From: Shigella phage SP18
Sequence record: GQ981382
DNA: 64,000 nucleotides
Reading direction: 5' to 3' (one strand)
The stretch's first letter is position 1. Each line of letters begins with the position of its first letter. Below, in pieces: positions 4,404-37,542 of the stretch. The translations under genes were made by a program, and so were the position numbers. The notes beneath the pieces are model-generated. The model made no database searches. It saw nothing but the letters and a program-made list of their open reading frames with translations, and was not told where the DNA came from.

Positions 4404-4440
4404 TATTATCCTAGGGTCATTATACCATGACCCCGTTGGT
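4404..4440 (-). promoter_or_regulatory. Early-promoter/stem-loop cassette (PeSL-like)
   Basis: Inverted repeat gggtcat/atgaccc whose loop carries minus-sense TATAAT; sits upstream of the 4370 start. Confidence 0.4.
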
Positions 4441-4442
4441 TT

Positions 4443-4688
4443 TTACTGCGCTTTAGCGCCTTTCCAGCCTTCGTACATCATTGCAACGGATAAAAGCAAT
4501 GCGCCTTCGCATGCAGCATACTTATTATTCCAAAACCAGTTCAGAAAAACTTCATCCTCAATGCCAGAGTGTTTCATGTTCTGGAAAAATTTGGCACGTT
4601 CTTCTGCAATACGTTGTGACAATTTAGATTGTGGATTCATTTTAAATTTTCCAGTTACCGTTTTCATCAATAAATTCAATCCAGTCAT
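4443..4688 (-). CDS. Hypothetical protein (81 aa)
   Basis: ORF track. Confidence 0.45.
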   Translation of the reverse strand: MTGLNLLMKTVTGKFKMNPQSKLSQRIAEERAKFFQNMKHSGIEDEVFLNWFWNNKYAACEGALLLSVAMMYEGWKGAKAQ

Positions 4689-4866
4689 TTACTGACCACT
4701 TGGTTGTATCGCCTTTTGGAGCAGAATTTAAAGCGTATAATCCTTGTTTAAAAAGCATTCGTTTGATATTCATGTTTTCCTCAGCTGTAACGATAGCACT
4801 CGTTTGATTTACGTTTTGCAACACGGTGAGAAGTATTATAATCAAAATCATCCTCAACGTATACAT
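4642..4866 (-). CDS. Hypothetical small protein with hydrophobic N-terminus; start uncertain (overlaps upstream ORF)
   Basis: ORF track; N-terminal LRMILIIILLTVL; possible internal start near 4773. Confidence 0.35.
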   Translation of the reverse strand: MYTLRMILIIILLTVLQNVNQTSAIVTAEENMNIKRMLFKQGLYALNSAPKGDTTKWSVNDWIEFIDENGNWKI

Positions 4867-5074
4867 CTTTTTTCAACTGACGAACTTCTTTACGCAGTTG
4901 ACGATTCATCTCATTCTTGACTTCTGAATCAACGCCACGCATACGCTTCCATTTGTCTGAACGGAAGATATTTTCTTCAACTTGTTCCTGACTTACACCA
5001 TCAGGCGCCTGACGACGCCCTGAATAATAAAAATCTTTTACAGACAATTCTTTGCGACGAATAGTTTTACCCAT
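4781..5074 (-). CDS. Hypothetical basic protein (97 aa)
   Basis: ORF track; Lys/Arg-rich. Confidence 0.4.
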   Translation of the reverse strand: MGKTIRRKELSVKDFYYSGRRQAPDGVSQEQVEENIFRSDKWKRMRGVDSEVKNEMNRQLRKEVRQLKKDVYVEDDFDYNTSHRVAKRKSNECYRYS

Positions 5075-20617: not shown

Positions 20618-20893
20618 TTATAGACGTTTAAAATTAAAGCAGTACTCTGAAAATAAACCTGCAAAATTACGTTCAACCCAGACCCGTTGTTTTGGACTGG
20701 TGACCGTTGACAAATAGTATGCTTGTTGCAGGCTTATTCCGTTTTTATTGGGGCACTCTTTGTTGAACGAGTGATAGGTACTTGCAACGATTTCGACTTC
20801 GCGCTCATACCTTTCCTGGTCCTGTTGCATAGGAACAAAAACCAAAACCAGGAATATCAAAATAGAGATATACGTCCAAACCTTGTATACCAT
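20618..20893 (-). CDS. Small membrane protein (rI.1 position)
   Basis: 91 aa; N-terminal hydrophobic helix; between tk and rI. Confidence 0.45.
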   Translation of the reverse strand: MVYKVWTYISILIFLVLVFVPMQQDQERYEREVEIVASTYHSFNKECPNKNGISLQQAYYLSTVTSPKQRVWVERNFAGLFSEYCFNFKRL

Positions 20894-20900
20894 GTGAACC

Positions 20901-21473
20901 TCAGCTTGTTAATTCGAGCCAATGTTTTCTGCACAAAGATACGTACGATTCATTCCCACCGACCAATACTTGCTCGCCGTCCTTTACAGCAGCACCGTCG
21001 ATTACTCGAGCGGTCATGGTTGCTTTCCGGCCGCAATGGCAGACGCCCTTTAATTCAACCAGTTTATCCGAAATAGCCAGAAGTCTGGCCGAACCGGGAA
21101 ATAATTGACCCCGAAAATCTGTTCTTAACCCGTAACACATAACGGGGATATTGTAATTATCAACCACTTGAGCTAACTGGTCAATTTGCTCTGGTAACAA
21201 AAATTGAGCTTCATCGACCAGGACACAATGGATATCCTTTTGAGACTCGGCCCATTTATAGAATTCAAACAGGTTCATGTCGGCCGTTACCAGGTTTGCT
21301 TCCTGGCTAATACCGATGCGTGATTTAATTTCGCCTTCCGAGTCCCGATTATCAATAACAGGTTTTAGCAAAAGCACACTCATTCCACGCTCTTTATAGG
21401 AATAAGCTGCAGTCAGCAATGAAGCTGTTTTGCCTGCATTCATTGCTGCGTAATGATAAATTAAACTCGCCAT
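20901..21473 (-). CDS. tk: Thymidine kinase
   Basis: 190 aa; P-loop NAGKTASLL, VDEAQFL and C-terminal CxxC zinc motif CHCGRKAT. Confidence 0.92.
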   Translation of the reverse strand: MASLIYHYAAMNAGKTASLLTAAYSYKERGMSVLLLKPVIDNRDSEGEIKSRIGISQEANLVTADMNLFEFYKWAESQKDIHCVLVDEAQFLLPEQIDQLAQVVDNYNIPVMCYGLRTDFRGQLFPGSARLLAISDKLVELKGVCHCGRKATMTARVIDGAAVKDGEQVLVGGNESYVSLCRKHWLELTS

Positions 21474-21482
21474 ATCACCTTC

Positions 21483-21668
21483 TTAAAGCGTATTCACATA
21501 AGCTATTAATTCGTTTTCTTTCGCATCAAATCGATTAGCAAATTCTTCCTGATGTTCGGCATCTATTGGACCGTATTCATCATAAAAGGCGTTTGCTTCT
21601 GTATGCTCATCCAAAAGCTCATGGATAAGCTCAAATAATCTACTTTTCTGACTAATGCTTAAACTCAT
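21483..21668 (-). CDS. Hypothetical acidic protein (61 aa)
   Basis: ORF track. Confidence 0.4.
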   Translation of the reverse strand: MSLSISQKSRLFELIHELLDEHTEANAFYDEYGPIDAEHQEEFANRFDAKENELIAYVNTL

Positions 21669-21892
21669 TTCGGTTCCCCATATCGCACAAATTTAGGATG
21701 TTCGCAATAACCAGAATGAAAACCTTCACCCTTATGATTGGAACACCCTTTATTGGAACAGTACCACCAGTAATCATATTCGCAATTCATTTCATCGTTG
21801 CATAAAGCTGCGATTACTGGCCATTCACATTTTTCACATTTGGCCGTTTTAAGAATTCGGGCTTGGCTCATAACCATTGCACCTTTAAGCAA
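21665..21892 (-). CDS. Cys-rich putative zinc-binding protein (75 aa)
   Basis: CEKCEW...CNDEMNCEYDYWWYCSNKGCSNHKGEGFHSGYCEH. Confidence 0.4.
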   Translation of the reverse strand: MLKGAMVMSQARILKTAKCEKCEWPVIAALCNDEMNCEYDYWWYCSNKGCSNHKGEGFHSGYCEHPKFVRYGEPK

Positions 21893-22080
21893 TATTCTTC
21901 TACGTGCTGTTTACGTTTATTTTTATCTATAAAAGTATATTCAACATATTCACCGATATACCATTTATCAGTGTTGTGTTGACTTTTTATAGGACATTTG
22001 GTTACTCGAGTTTCGGTCCAGCGTCGAATAATTTCCGCTTTGTTTTTAGGGTCAAACGGATGTGGGTAATGTGCTTTCAT
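21868..22080 (-). CDS. Hypothetical protein (70 aa)
   Basis: ORF track. Confidence 0.4.
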   Translation of the reverse strand: MKAHYPHPFDPKNKAEIIRRWTETRVTKCPIKSQHNTDKWYIGEYVEYTFIDKNKRKQHVEEYCLKVQWL

Positions 22081-22531
22081 AATCCACCACTATTAAATCA
22101 ATGTCAGGAGTAAACATATCAATTAATTGAGATACCTTATCCCAATCACCACCAGCAATACCACAACCAATACGTGGAATATAAATTACCGGTTTAAACA
22201 AAAGGGTTTCTGCTTGTAGATTTAATTCTATCATACAATTTACTAAAGCGCCATAATCAAGATTAGGGCCTGGTTCGTATTGCGTATACAAGTTATAGCA
22301 CATGCCAAAACCTGTAGGCTTATGTTTAAAAACAATAGACATATCGCCTAATTTATCACGAGAACCGTATTCAGTAGTGGTTTTATCTATTTCTAAAACT
22401 TTTGGATAAGCCTTCGCCAACTGTCCAGCTACACCGGAACCCATTGTATGAAAGCAGTTGCAACCATGTGCAATAATATTGCCTTGAAGAAAGAGGGCGA
22501 CGATATCGCCCTTAATATACTGGGTAATCAT
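22052..22531 (-). CDS. Macro-domain protein (ADP-ribose binding/processing)
   Basis: 159 aa; Gly-rich nucleotide-binding signature HGCNCFHTMGSGVAGQLA and GCGIAGGDW typical of macro domains. Confidence 0.6.
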   Translation of the reverse strand: MITQYIKGDIVALFLQGNIIAHGCNCFHTMGSGVAGQLAKAYPKVLEIDKTTTEYGSRDKLGDMSIVFKHKPTGFGMCYNLYTQYEPGPNLDYGALVNCMIELNLQAETLLFKPVIYIPRIGCGIAGGDWDKVSQLIDMFTPDIDLIVVDYESTLPTSV

Positions 22532-22887
22532 TTAGAGTTCAATCCTCTATTATATGAATCCACTAACCTGTCAACCATACTGGTGCAGGCCGCCTTGTAT
22601 TTTGCACTTGATAGAATGCAATCCATTTCAAATAATTTCTTTTCATATTTGTTGGATAATACATTCTTTTTCAAAAGCGTATGTTCAACATCATTTTGAC
22701 CATCTTTATAGGCTGCGGTGAGCTTGGCACTGAACTGGATTATACAATCCACATTGCTTGCTGCGCAATAATCTTTAGCCGTCCTCGTTGCATATTCTAT
22801 GATGCTGTTGTTGTCGTCGCTCTGTACTGAAGCTATTCCTCCCATGCTGAATACTAACCCTATGACTAAAGTGATAACTCTTACCAT
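22528..22887 (-). CDS. Secreted/periplasmic hypothetical protein (119 aa)
   Basis: N-terminal signal-like VITLVIGLVFSMGGIASV. Confidence 0.45.
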   Translation of the reverse strand: MVRVITLVIGLVFSMGGIASVQSDDNNSIIEYATRTAKDYCAASNVDCIIQFSAKLTAAYKDGQNDVEHTLLKKNVLSNKYEKKLFEMDCILSSAKYKAACTSMVDRLVDSYNRGLNSK

Positions 22888-22889
22888 TT

Positions 22890-23432
22890 TTAATCCACCG
22901 TTTTTAATAGGCCTCGTGATTTTAAGTAGTTAGCTTTTTCTAGGACCTGTGAAGCATACTTATTACCAGCTTTCACATTCCATCCTGCGTTATATGATGA
23001 TAGCGTTTTTCTTATATCCCCCTTATGAATATTCAACCAGTATGAAAGCTCAATATAAGCCCAGCGTGCACTGTTCTCTCTCTTGCTTATCATCTTGATT
23101 ATTTCTTTATCTGTCATTGTCCACCCAACCTGTTTCACTCGTTCGCGTACGGTTGGAAGATAATTTTGGAATATACCATATGCATGATGCTTATCTTTAT
23201 TTAATCCAGTATTAACCCCAGCAGAACTTTCCTGCCAGGTTAAACCAGCCATGATATATCCCAAACCATTACGTTGGTGTGGATTTTCTTTGTACTTGCC
23301 ATTTTTCTGGAACTGTTCTCCAAACGCATAAGCATATTGAAGGTTCTCCATTTGTTCATTACTGAAAGTAGGCTCTACGCTATGGGCAGACATACTAACT
23401 GTCAATAGTAAGGTGGCGATTACTTTTTTCAT
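22890..23432 (-). CDS. Secreted lytic-transglycosylase-like (SLT-domain) protein
   Basis: Signal peptide MKKVIATLLLTVSMSAHS; SLT-like motifs ES, GIFQ and YNAG. Confidence 0.45.
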   Translation of the reverse strand: MKKVIATLLLTVSMSAHSVEPTFSNEQMENLQYAYAFGEQFQKNGKYKENPHQRNGLGYIMAGLTWQESSAGVNTGLNKDKHHAYGIFQNYLPTVRERVKQVGWTMTDKEIIKMISKRENSARWAYIELSYWLNIHKGDIRKTLSSYNAGWNVKAGNKYASQVLEKANYLKSRGLLKTVD

Positions 23433-23442
23433 GAATTCCCCA

Positions 23443-23901
23443 TTAGATATAAATCACTTTTGTGCTAATTTTTCCTTCCAGACGATTAGAGTTAACAAAC
23501 GCCATACGACAACACATGGTTGGAGACTTCCCAGGAATAGCTGGATTAACTGTCATTCCTAACCATAGGTTCTTGTCTGTGATTTCCAGACGAAGTGGAC
23601 GGTAGTTCACATTCGGGTCAATTTGTGCTTCAACTTCCGGGAGTGGTTTCATCTCCAGGAATTCAACGATTTCTTTTACATGTGGTGTGATTTTTCCAAA
23701 CAAGTCAAAAACATATTGTTCATCAATTTCACGTTGGATTGCACGGTCCAATAGGTGTGGACTGTACTTAATGAAGAATACTTCAAGGCCTGCTTCTTTA
23801 CAAGCCTTGTTGATAGCATTATTAATTTTGAGGAACTCCGTTTCAAAAATGCGACGAAGTTTATTGCGGCGAATGTAAACACTTGAATCGATAGTAGTCA
23901 T
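23443..23901 (-). CDS. regB: RegB site-specific endoribonuclease
   Basis: From internal Met: MTTIDSSVYIRRNKLRRIFETEF...YSPHLLDRAIQREIDEQYVFDLF...RLEITDKNLWLG...CCRMA matches recalled T4 RegB; GGAG ribosome site before ATG 23901. Confidence 0.85.
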   Translation of the reverse strand: MTTIDSSVYIRRNKLRRIFETEFLKINNAINKACKEAGLEVFFIKYSPHLLDRAIQREIDEQYVFDLFGKITPHVKEIVEFLEMKPLPEVEAQIDPNVNYRPLRLEITDKNLWLGMTVNPAIPGKSPTMCCRMAFVNSNRLEGKISTKVIYI

Positions 23902-23950
23902 GATTATCTCCTTTTGTTTGATGGGATAATCATAACTCATTTCAATCTGC
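23902..23950 (-). promoter_or_regulatory. Early-promoter cassette (PeSL-like) upstream of regB
   Basis: gtttgatgggataatcat...cttgtacactac shared core. Confidence 0.4.
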
Positions 23951-23957
23951 TTGTACA

Positions 23958-24537
<580 letters not shown>

Positions 24538-37214: not shown

Positions 37215-37290
37215 TTGGTCGAGACAGTAGGGATCGAACCTACGACCTAGGACTTAGAAGGTCCTTGCTCTTCCTTCTGAGCTATGCCTC
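37215..37290 (-). tRNA. tRNA-Arg (anticodon UCU)
   Basis: Minus-sense cloverleaf CGAGGCA...CTTCTAA...GTAGGTTCGATCCCTAC...TGTCTCGACCA; anticodon loop CU-UCU-AA. Confidence 0.8.
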
Positions 37291-37295
37291 GTAAT

Positions 37296-37369
37296 TTGCG
37301 GACACACATGGATTCGAACCATGGACCAATTGATTAACAGTCAACTGCTCTACCACTGAGCTATGCATC
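37296..37369 (-). tRNA. tRNA-Asn (anticodon GUU)
   Basis: Minus-sense GGATGCATAGCTCAGTGGTAGAGC...CTGTTAA...CATGGTTCGAATCCATG; anticodon GTT. Confidence 0.75.
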
Positions 37370-37373
37370 CAAA

Positions 37374-37448
37374 TTGGTGGCCCTTGCTGGTTTCGATCCA
37401 GCTACCTATCAGTTATGAGCTGACAGCTCTCCCATTGAGCTAAAGGGC
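37374..37448 (-). tRNA. tRNA with CAU anticodon (Met or lysidine-modified Ile)
   Basis: Minus-sense GGCCCTTTAGCTCAATGGGAGAGC...CTCATAA...GCTGGATCGAAACCAGC AAGGGCC ACCA; T-loop reads AUCGAAA. Confidence 0.75.
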
Positions 37449-37542
37449 CAATTCTATTATGAAAGGCTCTTTGAGGGAAGAACCTTTGGTAATAGAGGGT
37501 ACTTATTAATAATAACACATAACTCTTAAAGCATATTACTTG

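What the first reader, a model, noticed from the sequence alone, without database searches (positions are those of the whole stretch)
22052..22531. Macro-domain protein in the tk to regB interval
The 159-aa protein has the Gly-rich phosphate-binding signatures of macro domains (HGCNCFHTMGSGVAGQLA and GCGIAGGDW). Macro domains bind or hydrolyse ADP-ribose adducts, so a phage-encoded macro domain is a plausible counter to host ADP-ribosylation-based immunity or to NAD-derived signalling. It could also regulate the phage's own ADP-ribosyltransferases.
Basis: partly seen in the sequence, partly recalled or inferred. Interest (0 to 1): 0.55.

Follow-up and report, generated by a model that had tools for sequence, protein, structure and literature searches.

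The report
T-even phage Tk.4/AdfM macrodomain, anti-DarT2
This gene is the counterpart of phage T4 tk.4 (adfM), a small ADP-ribose-removing enzyme already shown genetically to protect T4 from the bacterial DarTG2 defence, so the finding is real but essentially known.

Summary

Three details go beyond the literature I found.
- The window protein is only 57% identical to the tested T4 protein. It belongs to a second allele class (about 317 phage records, against 224 for the T4 type). That class has been swapped as a cassette between otherwise near-identical phages such as RB6 and T4.
- The catalytic Lys of TARG1 and DarG is an invariant Gln (Q84) here, as in SCO6735 (Gln85). SCO6735 is an active hydrolase of thymidine-linked ADP-ribose on DNA, so this is not a loss of catalysis.
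- The biochemically characterised PhiKZ "AdfM" is a different, Lys-type, DarG-like lineage.

Most likely function: removal of ADP-ribose placed on thymidine in phage DNA by DarT2. This is inferred, not shown, for this allele.

The parts
22052..22531 (-). CDS of 159 aa: single macrodomain protein, syntenic orthologue of T4 tk.4 / adfM (window-type or 'RB6-type' allele)
22415..22468 (-). Loop-1 / first Gly-rich motif H22-A39 (HGCNCFHTMGSGVAGQLA). It includes invariant H22, G23, N25, C26, G33 and A35.
   Evidence: Invariant columns in an 88-sequence alignment. H22, G23 and N25 align with SCO6735 His24, Val25 and Asn27. N25 aligns with PhiKZ AdfM Asn23, whose mutation reduces activity.
22280..22294 (-). 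N80-L-Y-T-Q84: the strand end carrying the invariant Gln at the position of the catalytic Lys of TARG1 (K84) and DarG (K80)
   Evidence: Q84 aligns with SCO6735 Gln85. The register is validated because chain residues V45 and Q105, minus a 20-aa tag, give the Val25 and Gln85 named in PMC9411070. The family profile aligns Q84 with the TARG1 'ITK' lysine and with the BT1257 'IGQ' glutamine. Poa1p has Ser there.
22142..22168 (-). Loop-2 / diphosphate-binding motif G122-W130 (GCGIAGGDW)
   Evidence: G122, G124 and W130 are invariant. The motif aligns with SCO6735 PRIGCGLAGGTW (Gly126/Gly128) and with TARG1 PRIGCGLDRLQW, where Asp125 is replaced by A126 here.
22528..22531 (-). ATGA overlap between the stop codon of vs and the start codon of tk.4. 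A possible Shine-Dalgarno GAGGA lies at 22543-22547, 11 nt upstream.
   Evidence: Read directly from the sequence and ORF coordinates. No promoter or terminator signal above chance in 20800-24400, which fits co-transcription within the regB-to-tk leftward array.
22052..22080 (-). 29-nt overlap between the 3' end of tk.4 and the start of tk.3 (DUF7202). This is the right-hand edge of the exchanged cassette.
   Evidence: ORF coordinates. RB6 has the same 29-nt overlap, whereas T4 has a 4-nt overlap. RB6-T4 DNA identity recovers here.

Best explanation
The gene encodes a stand-alone, single-domain macrodomain of the TARG1/DarG/SCO6735 (ALC1-like) class. It is the orthologue of T4 Tk.4 (AdfM).

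Proposed mechanism: during infection it binds ADP-ribose that the host toxin DarT2 has attached to the N3 of thymidine in single-stranded phage DNA. It then hydrolyses the ribose-base bond. This releases ADP-ribose, restores replicable DNA and neutralises DarTG2 abortive defence.

The active site is of the SCO6735 type. Gln84 is held by Asn25 and positions the distal ribose. A backbone-positioned water (near Gly23) acts in place of the nucleophilic Lys used by TARG1 and DarG.

What is shown here: the fold, the class, synteny with T4 tk.4, and conservation of the SCO6735-type residues. What is shown in the literature for the T4 orthologue: a genetic requirement for resistance to DarTG2. What is inferred: that this 57%-identical allele has the same target, and that it acts by hydrolysis.
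For: - Domain and fold: Pfam Macro above its gathering score. AF2 model pLDDT 93.8.
- Class by sequence: the family profile against PDB gives BT1257 5e-19, TARG1 3e-16, SCO6735 7e-15, Poa1p 4e-14 and DarG 7e-12.
- Orthology: same position and gene order as T4 tk.4. 57% identity, E=1e-69, no gaps.
- T4 genetics: tk.4 was the single HIDEN-SEQ hit on a DarTG2 host, and a clean knockout sensitised T4 to DarTG2 (10.1101/2025.11.20.689424). T4 lacking adfA and adfN stays DarTG2-resistant, which had predicted a further factor (PMC11825919).
- Active site: H22, N25, Q84, G122 and G124 are invariant in 88 homologues. They align with SCO6735 His24, Asn27, Gln85, Gly126 and Gly128.
- SCO6735 precedent: Q85A is inactive and N27S nearly so. 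The enzyme cleaves thymidine-linked ADP-ribosylated DNA and protects against DarT (PMC9411070).
- Related activities: TARG1 also reverses thymidine-linked ADP-ribosylation (PMC8883491). A phage macrodomain, PhiKZ gp104, removes DarT2-installed ADP-ribose from DNA in vitro (PMC13309987).
Against: - No biochemical assay exists for any Tk.4-type protein. The T4 evidence is genetic and comes from a preprint.
- This allele is only 57% identical to the tested T4 protein.
- SCO6735's DNA-positioning lysines Lys34 and Lys89, and its 5-residue longer mobile loop, are not conserved (S32 here, and no insertion).
- The protein is acidic (pI 4.9, against 5.9 for T4 Tk.4).
- The SCO6735 water-mediated mechanism itself rests on molecular dynamics plus mutagenesis.
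- The match to DarG models is weak: 28 bits against an NCBIfam cut-off of 250.
- Members of this class are often promiscuous, acting on Glu/Asp-linked protein ADP-ribose, phosphate-linked nucleic-acid ADP-ribose, O-acetyl-ADP-ribose and Appr1p. DNA need not be the only substrate.
Confidence: 0.7

Rival explanations
1. The window-type allele has a different or broader target than the T4-type allele. Candidates are another DarT2 clade with a different sequence motif, or another nucleic-acid or protein ADP-ribosylating toxin. Under this reading the allele classes at this locus reflect specialisation in an arms race.
For: The gene is exchanged as a discrete cassette. RB6 and T4 are 93-100% identical in tk, tk.3, vs and vs.1 but only 58% in tk.4. 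RB6 tk.4 is 93% identical to the window's even though their flanks are only 45-76% identical. At least three allele classes are common, with 317, 224 and 159 records. Differences include a loop-2 change (GIAGGDW here, GIGKGNW in T4) and a one-unit pI shift.
Against: Every family-invariant active-site residue is shared by both alleles. Mosaicism is common in T-even phage genomes and need not be adaptive; a second mosaic patch lies just downstream. No substrate data exist for either allele.
Confidence: 0.15
2. It is a small-molecule ADP-ribose metabolite enzyme, which is the basis of the database label 'phosphatase'. It would act as an ADP-ribose-1''-phosphate phosphatase like yeast Poa1p, or as an O-acetyl-ADP-ribose deacetylase, and would have no dedicated anti-defence role.
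Against: At the key position Poa1p has Ser, while this family has an invariant Gln as in the DNA hydrolase SCO6735. Loop 2 matches SCO6735 (PRIGCGLAGGTW) rather than Poa1p (PQINSGIAGVPW). T4 genetics gives a specific DarTG2 phenotype. To my knowledge T4 infection has no known source of Appr1p.
Confidence: 0.08
3. It neutralises DarT2 mainly without catalysis, by binding the toxin directly ('interaction-inhibition') or by binding ADP-ribosylated DNA.
For: Catalytically dead SCO6735 Q85A, DarG K80A and TARG1 K84A all inhibit DarT in vitro, and SCO6735 inhibits most strongly (PMC9411070).
Against: The protein lacks DarG's C-terminal DarT-binding domain. It has 159 aa, and the DarG models match only positions 3-144 of their 329-338. 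Strict invariance of the catalytic-type residues N25 and Q84 across 88 homologues argues for enzymatic selection.
Confidence: 0.05
4. It reverses or tunes modifications made by the phage's own ADP-ribosyltransferases (Alt, ModA, ModB).
For: T-even phages encode ADP-ribosyltransferases (mentions Alt and ModA). NAD/ADP-ribose-network domains tend to co-occur in DNA-virus genomes (PMC9503650).
Against: Those transferases are arginine-specific (my own knowledge). Arginine-linked ADP-ribose is reversed by ARH1-type enzymes, whereas TARG1-class macrodomains act on acidic residues and nucleic acids (PMC8883491). tk.4 was non-essential except on the DarTG2 host.
Confidence: 0.02

Closest known systems
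T4 Tk.4 = AdfM (anti-DarT factor Macrodomain; bioRxiv 10.1101/2025.11.20.689424)
   Same: Same locus between tk.3 and vs, same orientation, and similar size (155 against 159 aa). 57% identity with no gaps. All family-invariant residues are shared, including H22, N25, Q84, G122, G124 and W130.
   Different: It is a different allele class. Identity falls to about 45% after residue 40. Loop 2 reads GIAGGDW here and GIGKGNW in T4. There is a 4-residue C-terminal extension that overlaps tk.3 by 29 nt. The protein is more acidic. The anti-DarTG2 phenotype has been tested only for the T4 allele.
Streptomyces coelicolor SCO6735 (PDB 5e3b), a hydrolase of thymidine-linked ADP-ribosylated DNA
   Same: It has Gln at the TARG1-Lys84/DarG-Lys80 position (Q84 = Gln85). 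Asn27, His24, Gly126 and Gly128 are conserved. Loop 2 reads PRIGCGxAGGxW. Like the window protein, it consists of a single macrodomain with no extra domain.
   Different: The window protein lacks the 5-residue longer mobile loop with Lys89, and has Ser32 in place of Lys34. Gly replaces Val25, although that residue acts through its backbone. Overall identity is low. SCO6735 is bacterial and SOS-regulated, not a phage gene.
DarG antitoxin macrodomain (PDB 5m31, 5m3i, 7omu)
   Different: DarG uses a catalytic Lys (FPTK), where this protein has Gln. DarG has a C-terminal DarT-binding domain and is encoded next to darT; neither applies here. The protein scores 28 bits against the NCBIfam DarG cut-off of 250.
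PhiKZ gp104 'AdfM' (Cell Rep 2026, PMC13309987)
   Same: It is a phage-encoded stand-alone macrodomain that counters DarTG2. Its conserved Asn23 aligns with N25.
   Different: It belongs to a different lineage. gp104 is DarG-like (PDB 5m3i E=9e-25; NCBIfam DarG 138 bits) and keeps the catalytic Lys (FPTKDNW). Pairwise similarity to the window protein is marginal (23 bits). The shared name hides two independent acquisitions.
Human TARG1/OARD1 (PDB 4j5r)
   Same: It is the best Foldseek match (E=3.7e-10, TM 0.72-0.82) and is also able to reverse thymidine-linked ADP-ribosylation.
   Different: The Lys84/Asp125 catalytic dyad is replaced by Gln84/Ala126.
Yeast Poa1p (PDB 6lfq-6lfu) and Bacteroides BT1257 (PDB 2afc/2fg1)
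   Different: BT1257 has no known function. Poa1p has Ser at the Gln position and a different loop 2, and it acts on a small molecule.

Membership tests
Macro domain (Pfam PF01661) | Profile match above the curated gathering score | tested here: met
   33.2 bits against a gathering score of 22, E=5.4e-8, covering profile positions 2-117 of 118.
Macro domain (Pfam PF01661) | Alpha/beta/alpha sandwich fold with a central mixed sheet, and two Gly-rich ADP-ribose-binding loops | tested here: met
ALC1-like / TARG1-DarG-SCO6735-Poa1p macrodomain class | Closer in sequence and structure to TARG1, DarG, SCO6735 and Poa1p than to MacroD, PARG or viral macrodomains | tested here: met
TARG1-type hydrolase | Lys84/Asp125 catalytic dyad | tested here: not met
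   Q84 and A126 occupy these positions.
DarG antitoxin | Catalytic Lys (K80 in T. aquaticus) in the macrodomain | tested here: not met
   DarG has FPTKKHW. The window protein has LYTQYEP, with the Gln invariant in 88 homologues.
DarG antitoxin | C-terminal DarT-binding domain (protein of about 330-400 aa) and a score above the equivalog cut-off | tested here: not met
   The protein has 159 aa. The PADLOC DarG model matches only its positions 4-144 of 329. NCBIfam NF048014 gives 28.2 bits against a cut-off of 250.
DarG antitoxin | Encoded next to a darT toxin gene | tested here: not met
   The neighbours are vs and tk.3 (DUF7202).
SCO6735-type (Gln) hydrolase of thymidine-linked ADP-ribosylated DNA | Gln at the catalytic-Lys position, held by a conserved Asn; His24; loop-2 Gly126 and Gly128 | tested here: met
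   Q84=Gln85, N25=Asn27, H22=His24, G122=Gly126 and G124=Gly128. The register is validated by the Val25/Gln85 numbering.
SCO6735-type (Gln) hydrolase of thymidine-linked ADP-ribosylated DNA | DNA-positioning Lys34 and Lys89 and the extended mobile loop | tested here: not met
   S32 aligns with Lys34. The 5-residue 'gmktg' insertion that carries Lys89 is absent.
SCO6735-type (Gln) hydrolase of thymidine-linked ADP-ribosylated DNA | Hydrolysis of thymidine-linked ADP-ribose on ssDNA | not testable with these tools
   This requires an in vitro assay.
AdfM (T4 Tk.4 sense) | Orthology with T4 tk.4: homology plus conserved position between tk.3 and vs | tested here: met
   57% identity, E=1e-69. Identical gene order in T4, RB6, phage 212 and the window.
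AdfM (T4 Tk.4 sense) | Required for phage growth on a DarTG2-expressing host | not testable with these tools
   This is shown only for the T4 allele.
Poa1p-type ADP-ribose-1''-phosphate phosphatase | Poa1p active-site configuration: His23, Ser at the Lys/Gln position, and loop 2 PQINSGIAGVPW | tested here: inconclusive
   His is conserved (H22). The Ser position is Gln here. Loop 2 resembles SCO6735 more than Poa1p. The paper on the Poa1p mechanism is not in the library.

The most novel reading that the evidence does not exclude
The tk.4 locus may be a hot-swappable anti-defence slot. Its allele classes (window/RB6 type, T4 type, and a third type 80-90% identical to T4) would be Gln-type macrodomain hydrolases tuned to different ADP-ribosylating toxins. 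Those toxins could be different DarT2 clades or motifs, or ADP-ribosyltransferases that target RNA or other bases. Under this reading the window allele would protect against a system that the T4 allele does not. The Gln-based, Lys-independent chemistry would then be the dominant mechanism among phage anti-DarT macrodomains.
Probability: 0.2. Interest if true: 0.55.

Novelty: already known. Interest (0 to 1): 0.25.

Why it matters
DarTG systems stop phage replication by ADP-ribosylating DNA, and T-even phages stack several counter-measures against them: AdfA, AdfN and AdfM. Recognising this ORF as the Tk.4/AdfM orthologue explains why phages of this lineage should resist DarTG2, which is relevant when choosing therapeutic phages. 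The incremental points found here are cheap to test. They are a Gln-type, SCO6735-like active site rather than a DarG-like one, two unrelated lineages sharing the name AdfM, and cassette-like exchange of alleles. Testing them would clarify how this enzyme class works without the canonical lysine, and whether allele diversity tracks toxin diversity.

Tried and rejected
- The promoter/terminator scan of 20800-24400 found nothing above shuffled expectation (11 promoter-like sites against 12.0±2.8). I claim no dedicated promoter.
- The Rfam gathering scan of the whole window found only three tRNAs. No RNA element is associated with the gene.
- The genomic context of one bacterial homologue (Pelagimonas P0104, 39% identity) shows a stand-alone gene with no darT or other toxin nearby. 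It gives no evidence on an antitoxin origin for this lineage.
- Direct BLASTP against the biochemically characterised PhiKZ AdfM gave only marginal local matches. I therefore did not transfer its biochemistry by homology and used it only as a functional precedent.
- I looked for the paper on the Poa1p structure and mechanism, but it is not in the library. The Poa1p comparison rests on PDB entry titles and alignments.
- I considered and rejected the idea that the Lys-to-Gln change means an inactive, binding-only macrodomain. The Gln is invariant, and the equivalent Gln is essential in an active enzyme.

Full report
**Observation.** The ORF is real. The ORF listing gives an ATG-initiated reading frame at 22052..22531 on the minus strand, 159 aa long, and its translation contains both quoted motifs. 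All its neighbours lie on the same strand. They are thymidine kinase (20901-21473), three small ORFs (DUF7438, Phage_zn_bind, DUF7202), the macro ORF, the valyl-tRNA synthetase modifier Vs (22528-22887), Vs.1 (22890-23432) and RegB (23443-23958). The start codon overlaps the vs stop codon (ATGA), and the 3' end overlaps the next gene by 29 nt. A consensus promoter/terminator scan found nothing above shuffled expectation. The gene therefore looks like one cistron in a tightly packed leftward array.

**Identity of the window.** The region is 98.6% identical to Escherichia phage 212 and 90-98% identical to many other T4-like coliphages. The gene order is that of T4 (tk, tk.1-tk.4, vs, vs.1, regB). 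The macro ORF occupies the tk.4 position, and T4 annotates tk.4 as 'phosphatase; contains A1pp phosphatase motif'. Homologues occur in 2,750 of 50,697 phage records. They are annotated variously as hypothetical protein, phosphatase, macro domain protein, Poa1p-like or O-acetyl-ADP-ribose deacetylase.

**Fold and class.**
- The protein matches Pfam Macro above its gathering score (33.2 bits against 22).
- An AlphaFold2 model built on an 88-sequence alignment is confident (pLDDT 93.8, pTM 0.89).
- Foldseek against PDB ranks TARG1, BT1257, Poa1p and the DarG macrodomains first.
- A family profile searched against PDB sequences gives the same grouping: BT1257 5e-19, TARG1 3e-16, SCO6735 7e-15, Poa1p 4e-14, DarG 7e-12 and 7.5e-10.

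The protein is therefore a single-domain member of the ALC1-like (TARG1/DarG/SCO6735/Poa1p) macrodomain class.

**What is already known.**
- Tk.4 orthologues were noted to match the A1pp (macro) domain in 2006 (PMC1524935).
- The HIDEN-SEQ preprint then found tk.4 as the single significant hit when a T4 transposon library was grown on a DarTG2 host. A clean tk.4 knockout sensitised T4 to DarTG2. The authors named the gene adfM and proposed, without biochemistry, that it removes ADP-ribose from DNA (10.1101/2025.11.20.689424).
- Independently, a chimallivirus macrodomain, PhiKZ gp104, was also named AdfM. It was shown in vitro to remove DarT2-installed ADP-ribose from a TNTC oligonucleotide, and an Asn23 mutant was impaired (PMC13309987).
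- The T2 Tk.4 protein has been detected by proteomics (10.64898/2026.06.19.733364).

**Catalytic residues.**
- In 88 homologues the invariant positions are H22, G23, N25, C26, G33, A35, D49, N80, Y82, Q84, P119, G122, G124 and W130.
- The family profile aligns Q84 with the lysine of TARG1 'LITK' (Lys84) and A126 with TARG1 Asp125. The TARG1 dyad is therefore absent.
- DarG and PhiKZ gp104 both keep the lysine (FPTK).
- SCO6735 aligns as H24/V25/N27 with H22/G23/N25, and 'NMIGQ' with 'NLYTQ'. Subtracting a 20-residue tag from the chain numbering reproduces exactly the Val25 and Gln85 named in the paper, which validates the register.
- SCO6735 Gln85 is described as the equivalent of TARG1 Lys84 and DarG Lys80. 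Q85A abolishes activity and N27S nearly does so. The enzyme cleaves thymidine-linked ADP-ribose from DNA and protects against DarT. A mechanism based on a backbone-positioned water was proposed for it (PMC9411070).
- BT1257 also has the Gln, whereas Poa1p has Ser.
- Loop 2 (PRIGCGIAGGDW) matches SCO6735 (PRIGCGLAGGTW) rather than TARG1 (PRIGCGLDRLQW) or Poa1p (PQINSGIAGVPW).

The window protein, and T4 Tk.4 which shares all these residues, therefore has the SCO6735-type active site. This is an active configuration, not a degenerate one. There are differences from SCO6735: its DNA-positioning Lys34 and Lys89 and its longer mobile loop are missing.

**Membership.**
- The protein is a Macro-domain protein of the ALC1-like class, and an orthologue of T4 Tk.4.
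- It is not a DarG. It has no catalytic Lys, no C-terminal DarT-binding domain and no adjacent darT. It scores only 28 bits against the NCBIfam DarG equivalog cut-off of 250, whereas PhiKZ gp104 scores 138 bits on the macrodomain part.
- The two phage proteins called AdfM thus come from different macrodomain lineages, one Gln-type and one Lys-type. They are barely alignable with each other.

**Divergence and mosaicism.**
- The window protein is only 57% identical to T4 Tk.4.
- This is not simply because the phage is distant from T4. RB6, a Tequatrovirus, is 99.5%, 93%, 100% and 100% identical to T4 in Tk, Tk.3, Vs and Vs.1, but only 58% in Tk.4.
- RB6 Tk.4 is 93% identical to the window protein, even though the flanking proteins of RB6 and the window are only 45-76% identical.
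- Sliding DNA identity places the junctions about 115 nt into tk.4, just after the conserved loop-1 coding region, and at the tk.4/tk.3 boundary.
- In the phage collection, 317 records carry a window-type allele (at least 90% identity). 224 carry a T4-type allele, and 159 carry a third class that is 80-90% identical to T4.
- The two alleles differ in loop 2 (GIAGGDW here, GIGKGNW in T4) and in net charge (pI 4.9 against 5.9).
- Whether this reflects selection by different toxins or ordinary T-even mosaicism cannot be decided here. A second mosaic patch lies immediately downstream.

**Mechanism and rivals.**
- Best explanation, confidence about 0.7: hydrolytic removal of DarT2-installed ADP-ribose from thymidine in single-stranded phage DNA, using SCO6735-like Gln/Asn/water chemistry.
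- Allele-specific or broader target range: 0.15.
- Poa1p-like small-molecule phosphatase or deacetylase, the source of the 'phosphatase' annotation: 0.08.
- Non-catalytic inhibition of DarT: 0.05.
- Reversal of the phage's own arginine-specific ADP-ribosyltransferases: 0.02. This is disfavoured because arginine-linked ADP-ribose is reversed by ARH1-type enzymes rather than TARG1-class macrodomains.
- A bacterial homologue examined in context is a stand-alone gene with no toxin neighbour.

**Verdict.** The kind of element is already known: the macro annotation dates from 2006, and the anti-DarTG2 function of the T4 orthologue from 2025. The residual interest lies in three things: the Gln-type active site, which the preprint's comparison to DarG does not bring out; the collision of the name AdfM between two lineages; and the cassette-like allele exchange at this locus.

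Noticed in passing
window 22052-22531, compared with L001 (T4) 4423-4890 and L005 (RB6) 2001-2480: tk.4 behaves as an exchangeable cassette. RB6 and T4 are 93-100% identical in the flanking proteins but only 58% in Tk.4. RB6 Tk.4 is 93% identical to the window's despite flanks that are only 45-76% identical. The junctions lie about 115 nt into the gene and at the tk.4/tk.3 boundary. The allele classes are found in 317, 224 and 159 phage records.
   Followed up: partly
window 21483-21892 (ORFs 21483-21668 DUF7438 and 21665-21892 Phage_zn_bind): A second mosaic patch lies between tk.3 and tk. The window's zinc-binding ORF has no BLASTP match to T4 tk.2, and its tk.1-like ORF is only 32% identical to T4 tk.1. 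RB6 carries two extra small ORFs here. RB6 matches the window at 81-98% DNA identity in the part next to tk.
   Followed up: partly
literature: T4 Tk.4 versus PhiKZ gp104: Two groups independently gave the name AdfM to two phage macrodomains from different lineages. T4 Tk.4 is Gln-type and SCO6735/BT1257-like, scoring 28-30 bits to the NCBIfam DarG model. PhiKZ gp104 is Lys-type and DarG-like, scoring 138 bits.
   Followed up: yes
window 22528-22887 (vs): The Vs homologue is only 45% identical to T4 Vs, although RB6 Vs is 100% identical to T4 Vs. HIDEN-SEQ reports that T4 vs is the gene most depleted in minimal medium, and its role remains unexplained.
   Followed up: no
window 22052-22080: The 3' end of tk.4 overlaps the start of tk.3 (DUF7202) by 29 nt in the window and in RB6, but by only 4 nt in T4. 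The window-type allele carries a 4-residue, low-confidence C-terminal extension, with pLDDT below 50 for residues 155-159.
   Followed up: partly
window 37216-37449: The 64-kb window contains only three tRNA genes (Arg-tct, Asn-gtt, Met-cat), clustered on the minus strand. From my own knowledge T4 has eight, so the cluster appears reduced in this lineage.
   Followed up: no
window 22385-22387 (codon for D49 of the macro protein): Asp49, in helix 44-52, is invariant in all 88 family members. It has no assigned counterpart among the residues studied in SCO6735, TARG1 or DarG, and its role is unknown.
   Followed up: no
window 22890-23432 (vs.1): The Vs.1 homologue (180 aa, PHROG 600, no Pfam hit at E<=0.01) has a hydrophobic, signal-peptide-like N-terminus. 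Some deposited genomes annotate it as an SLT / lytic transglycosylase domain protein. A 2006 survey reported weak SLT matches for vs.1.
   Followed up: no
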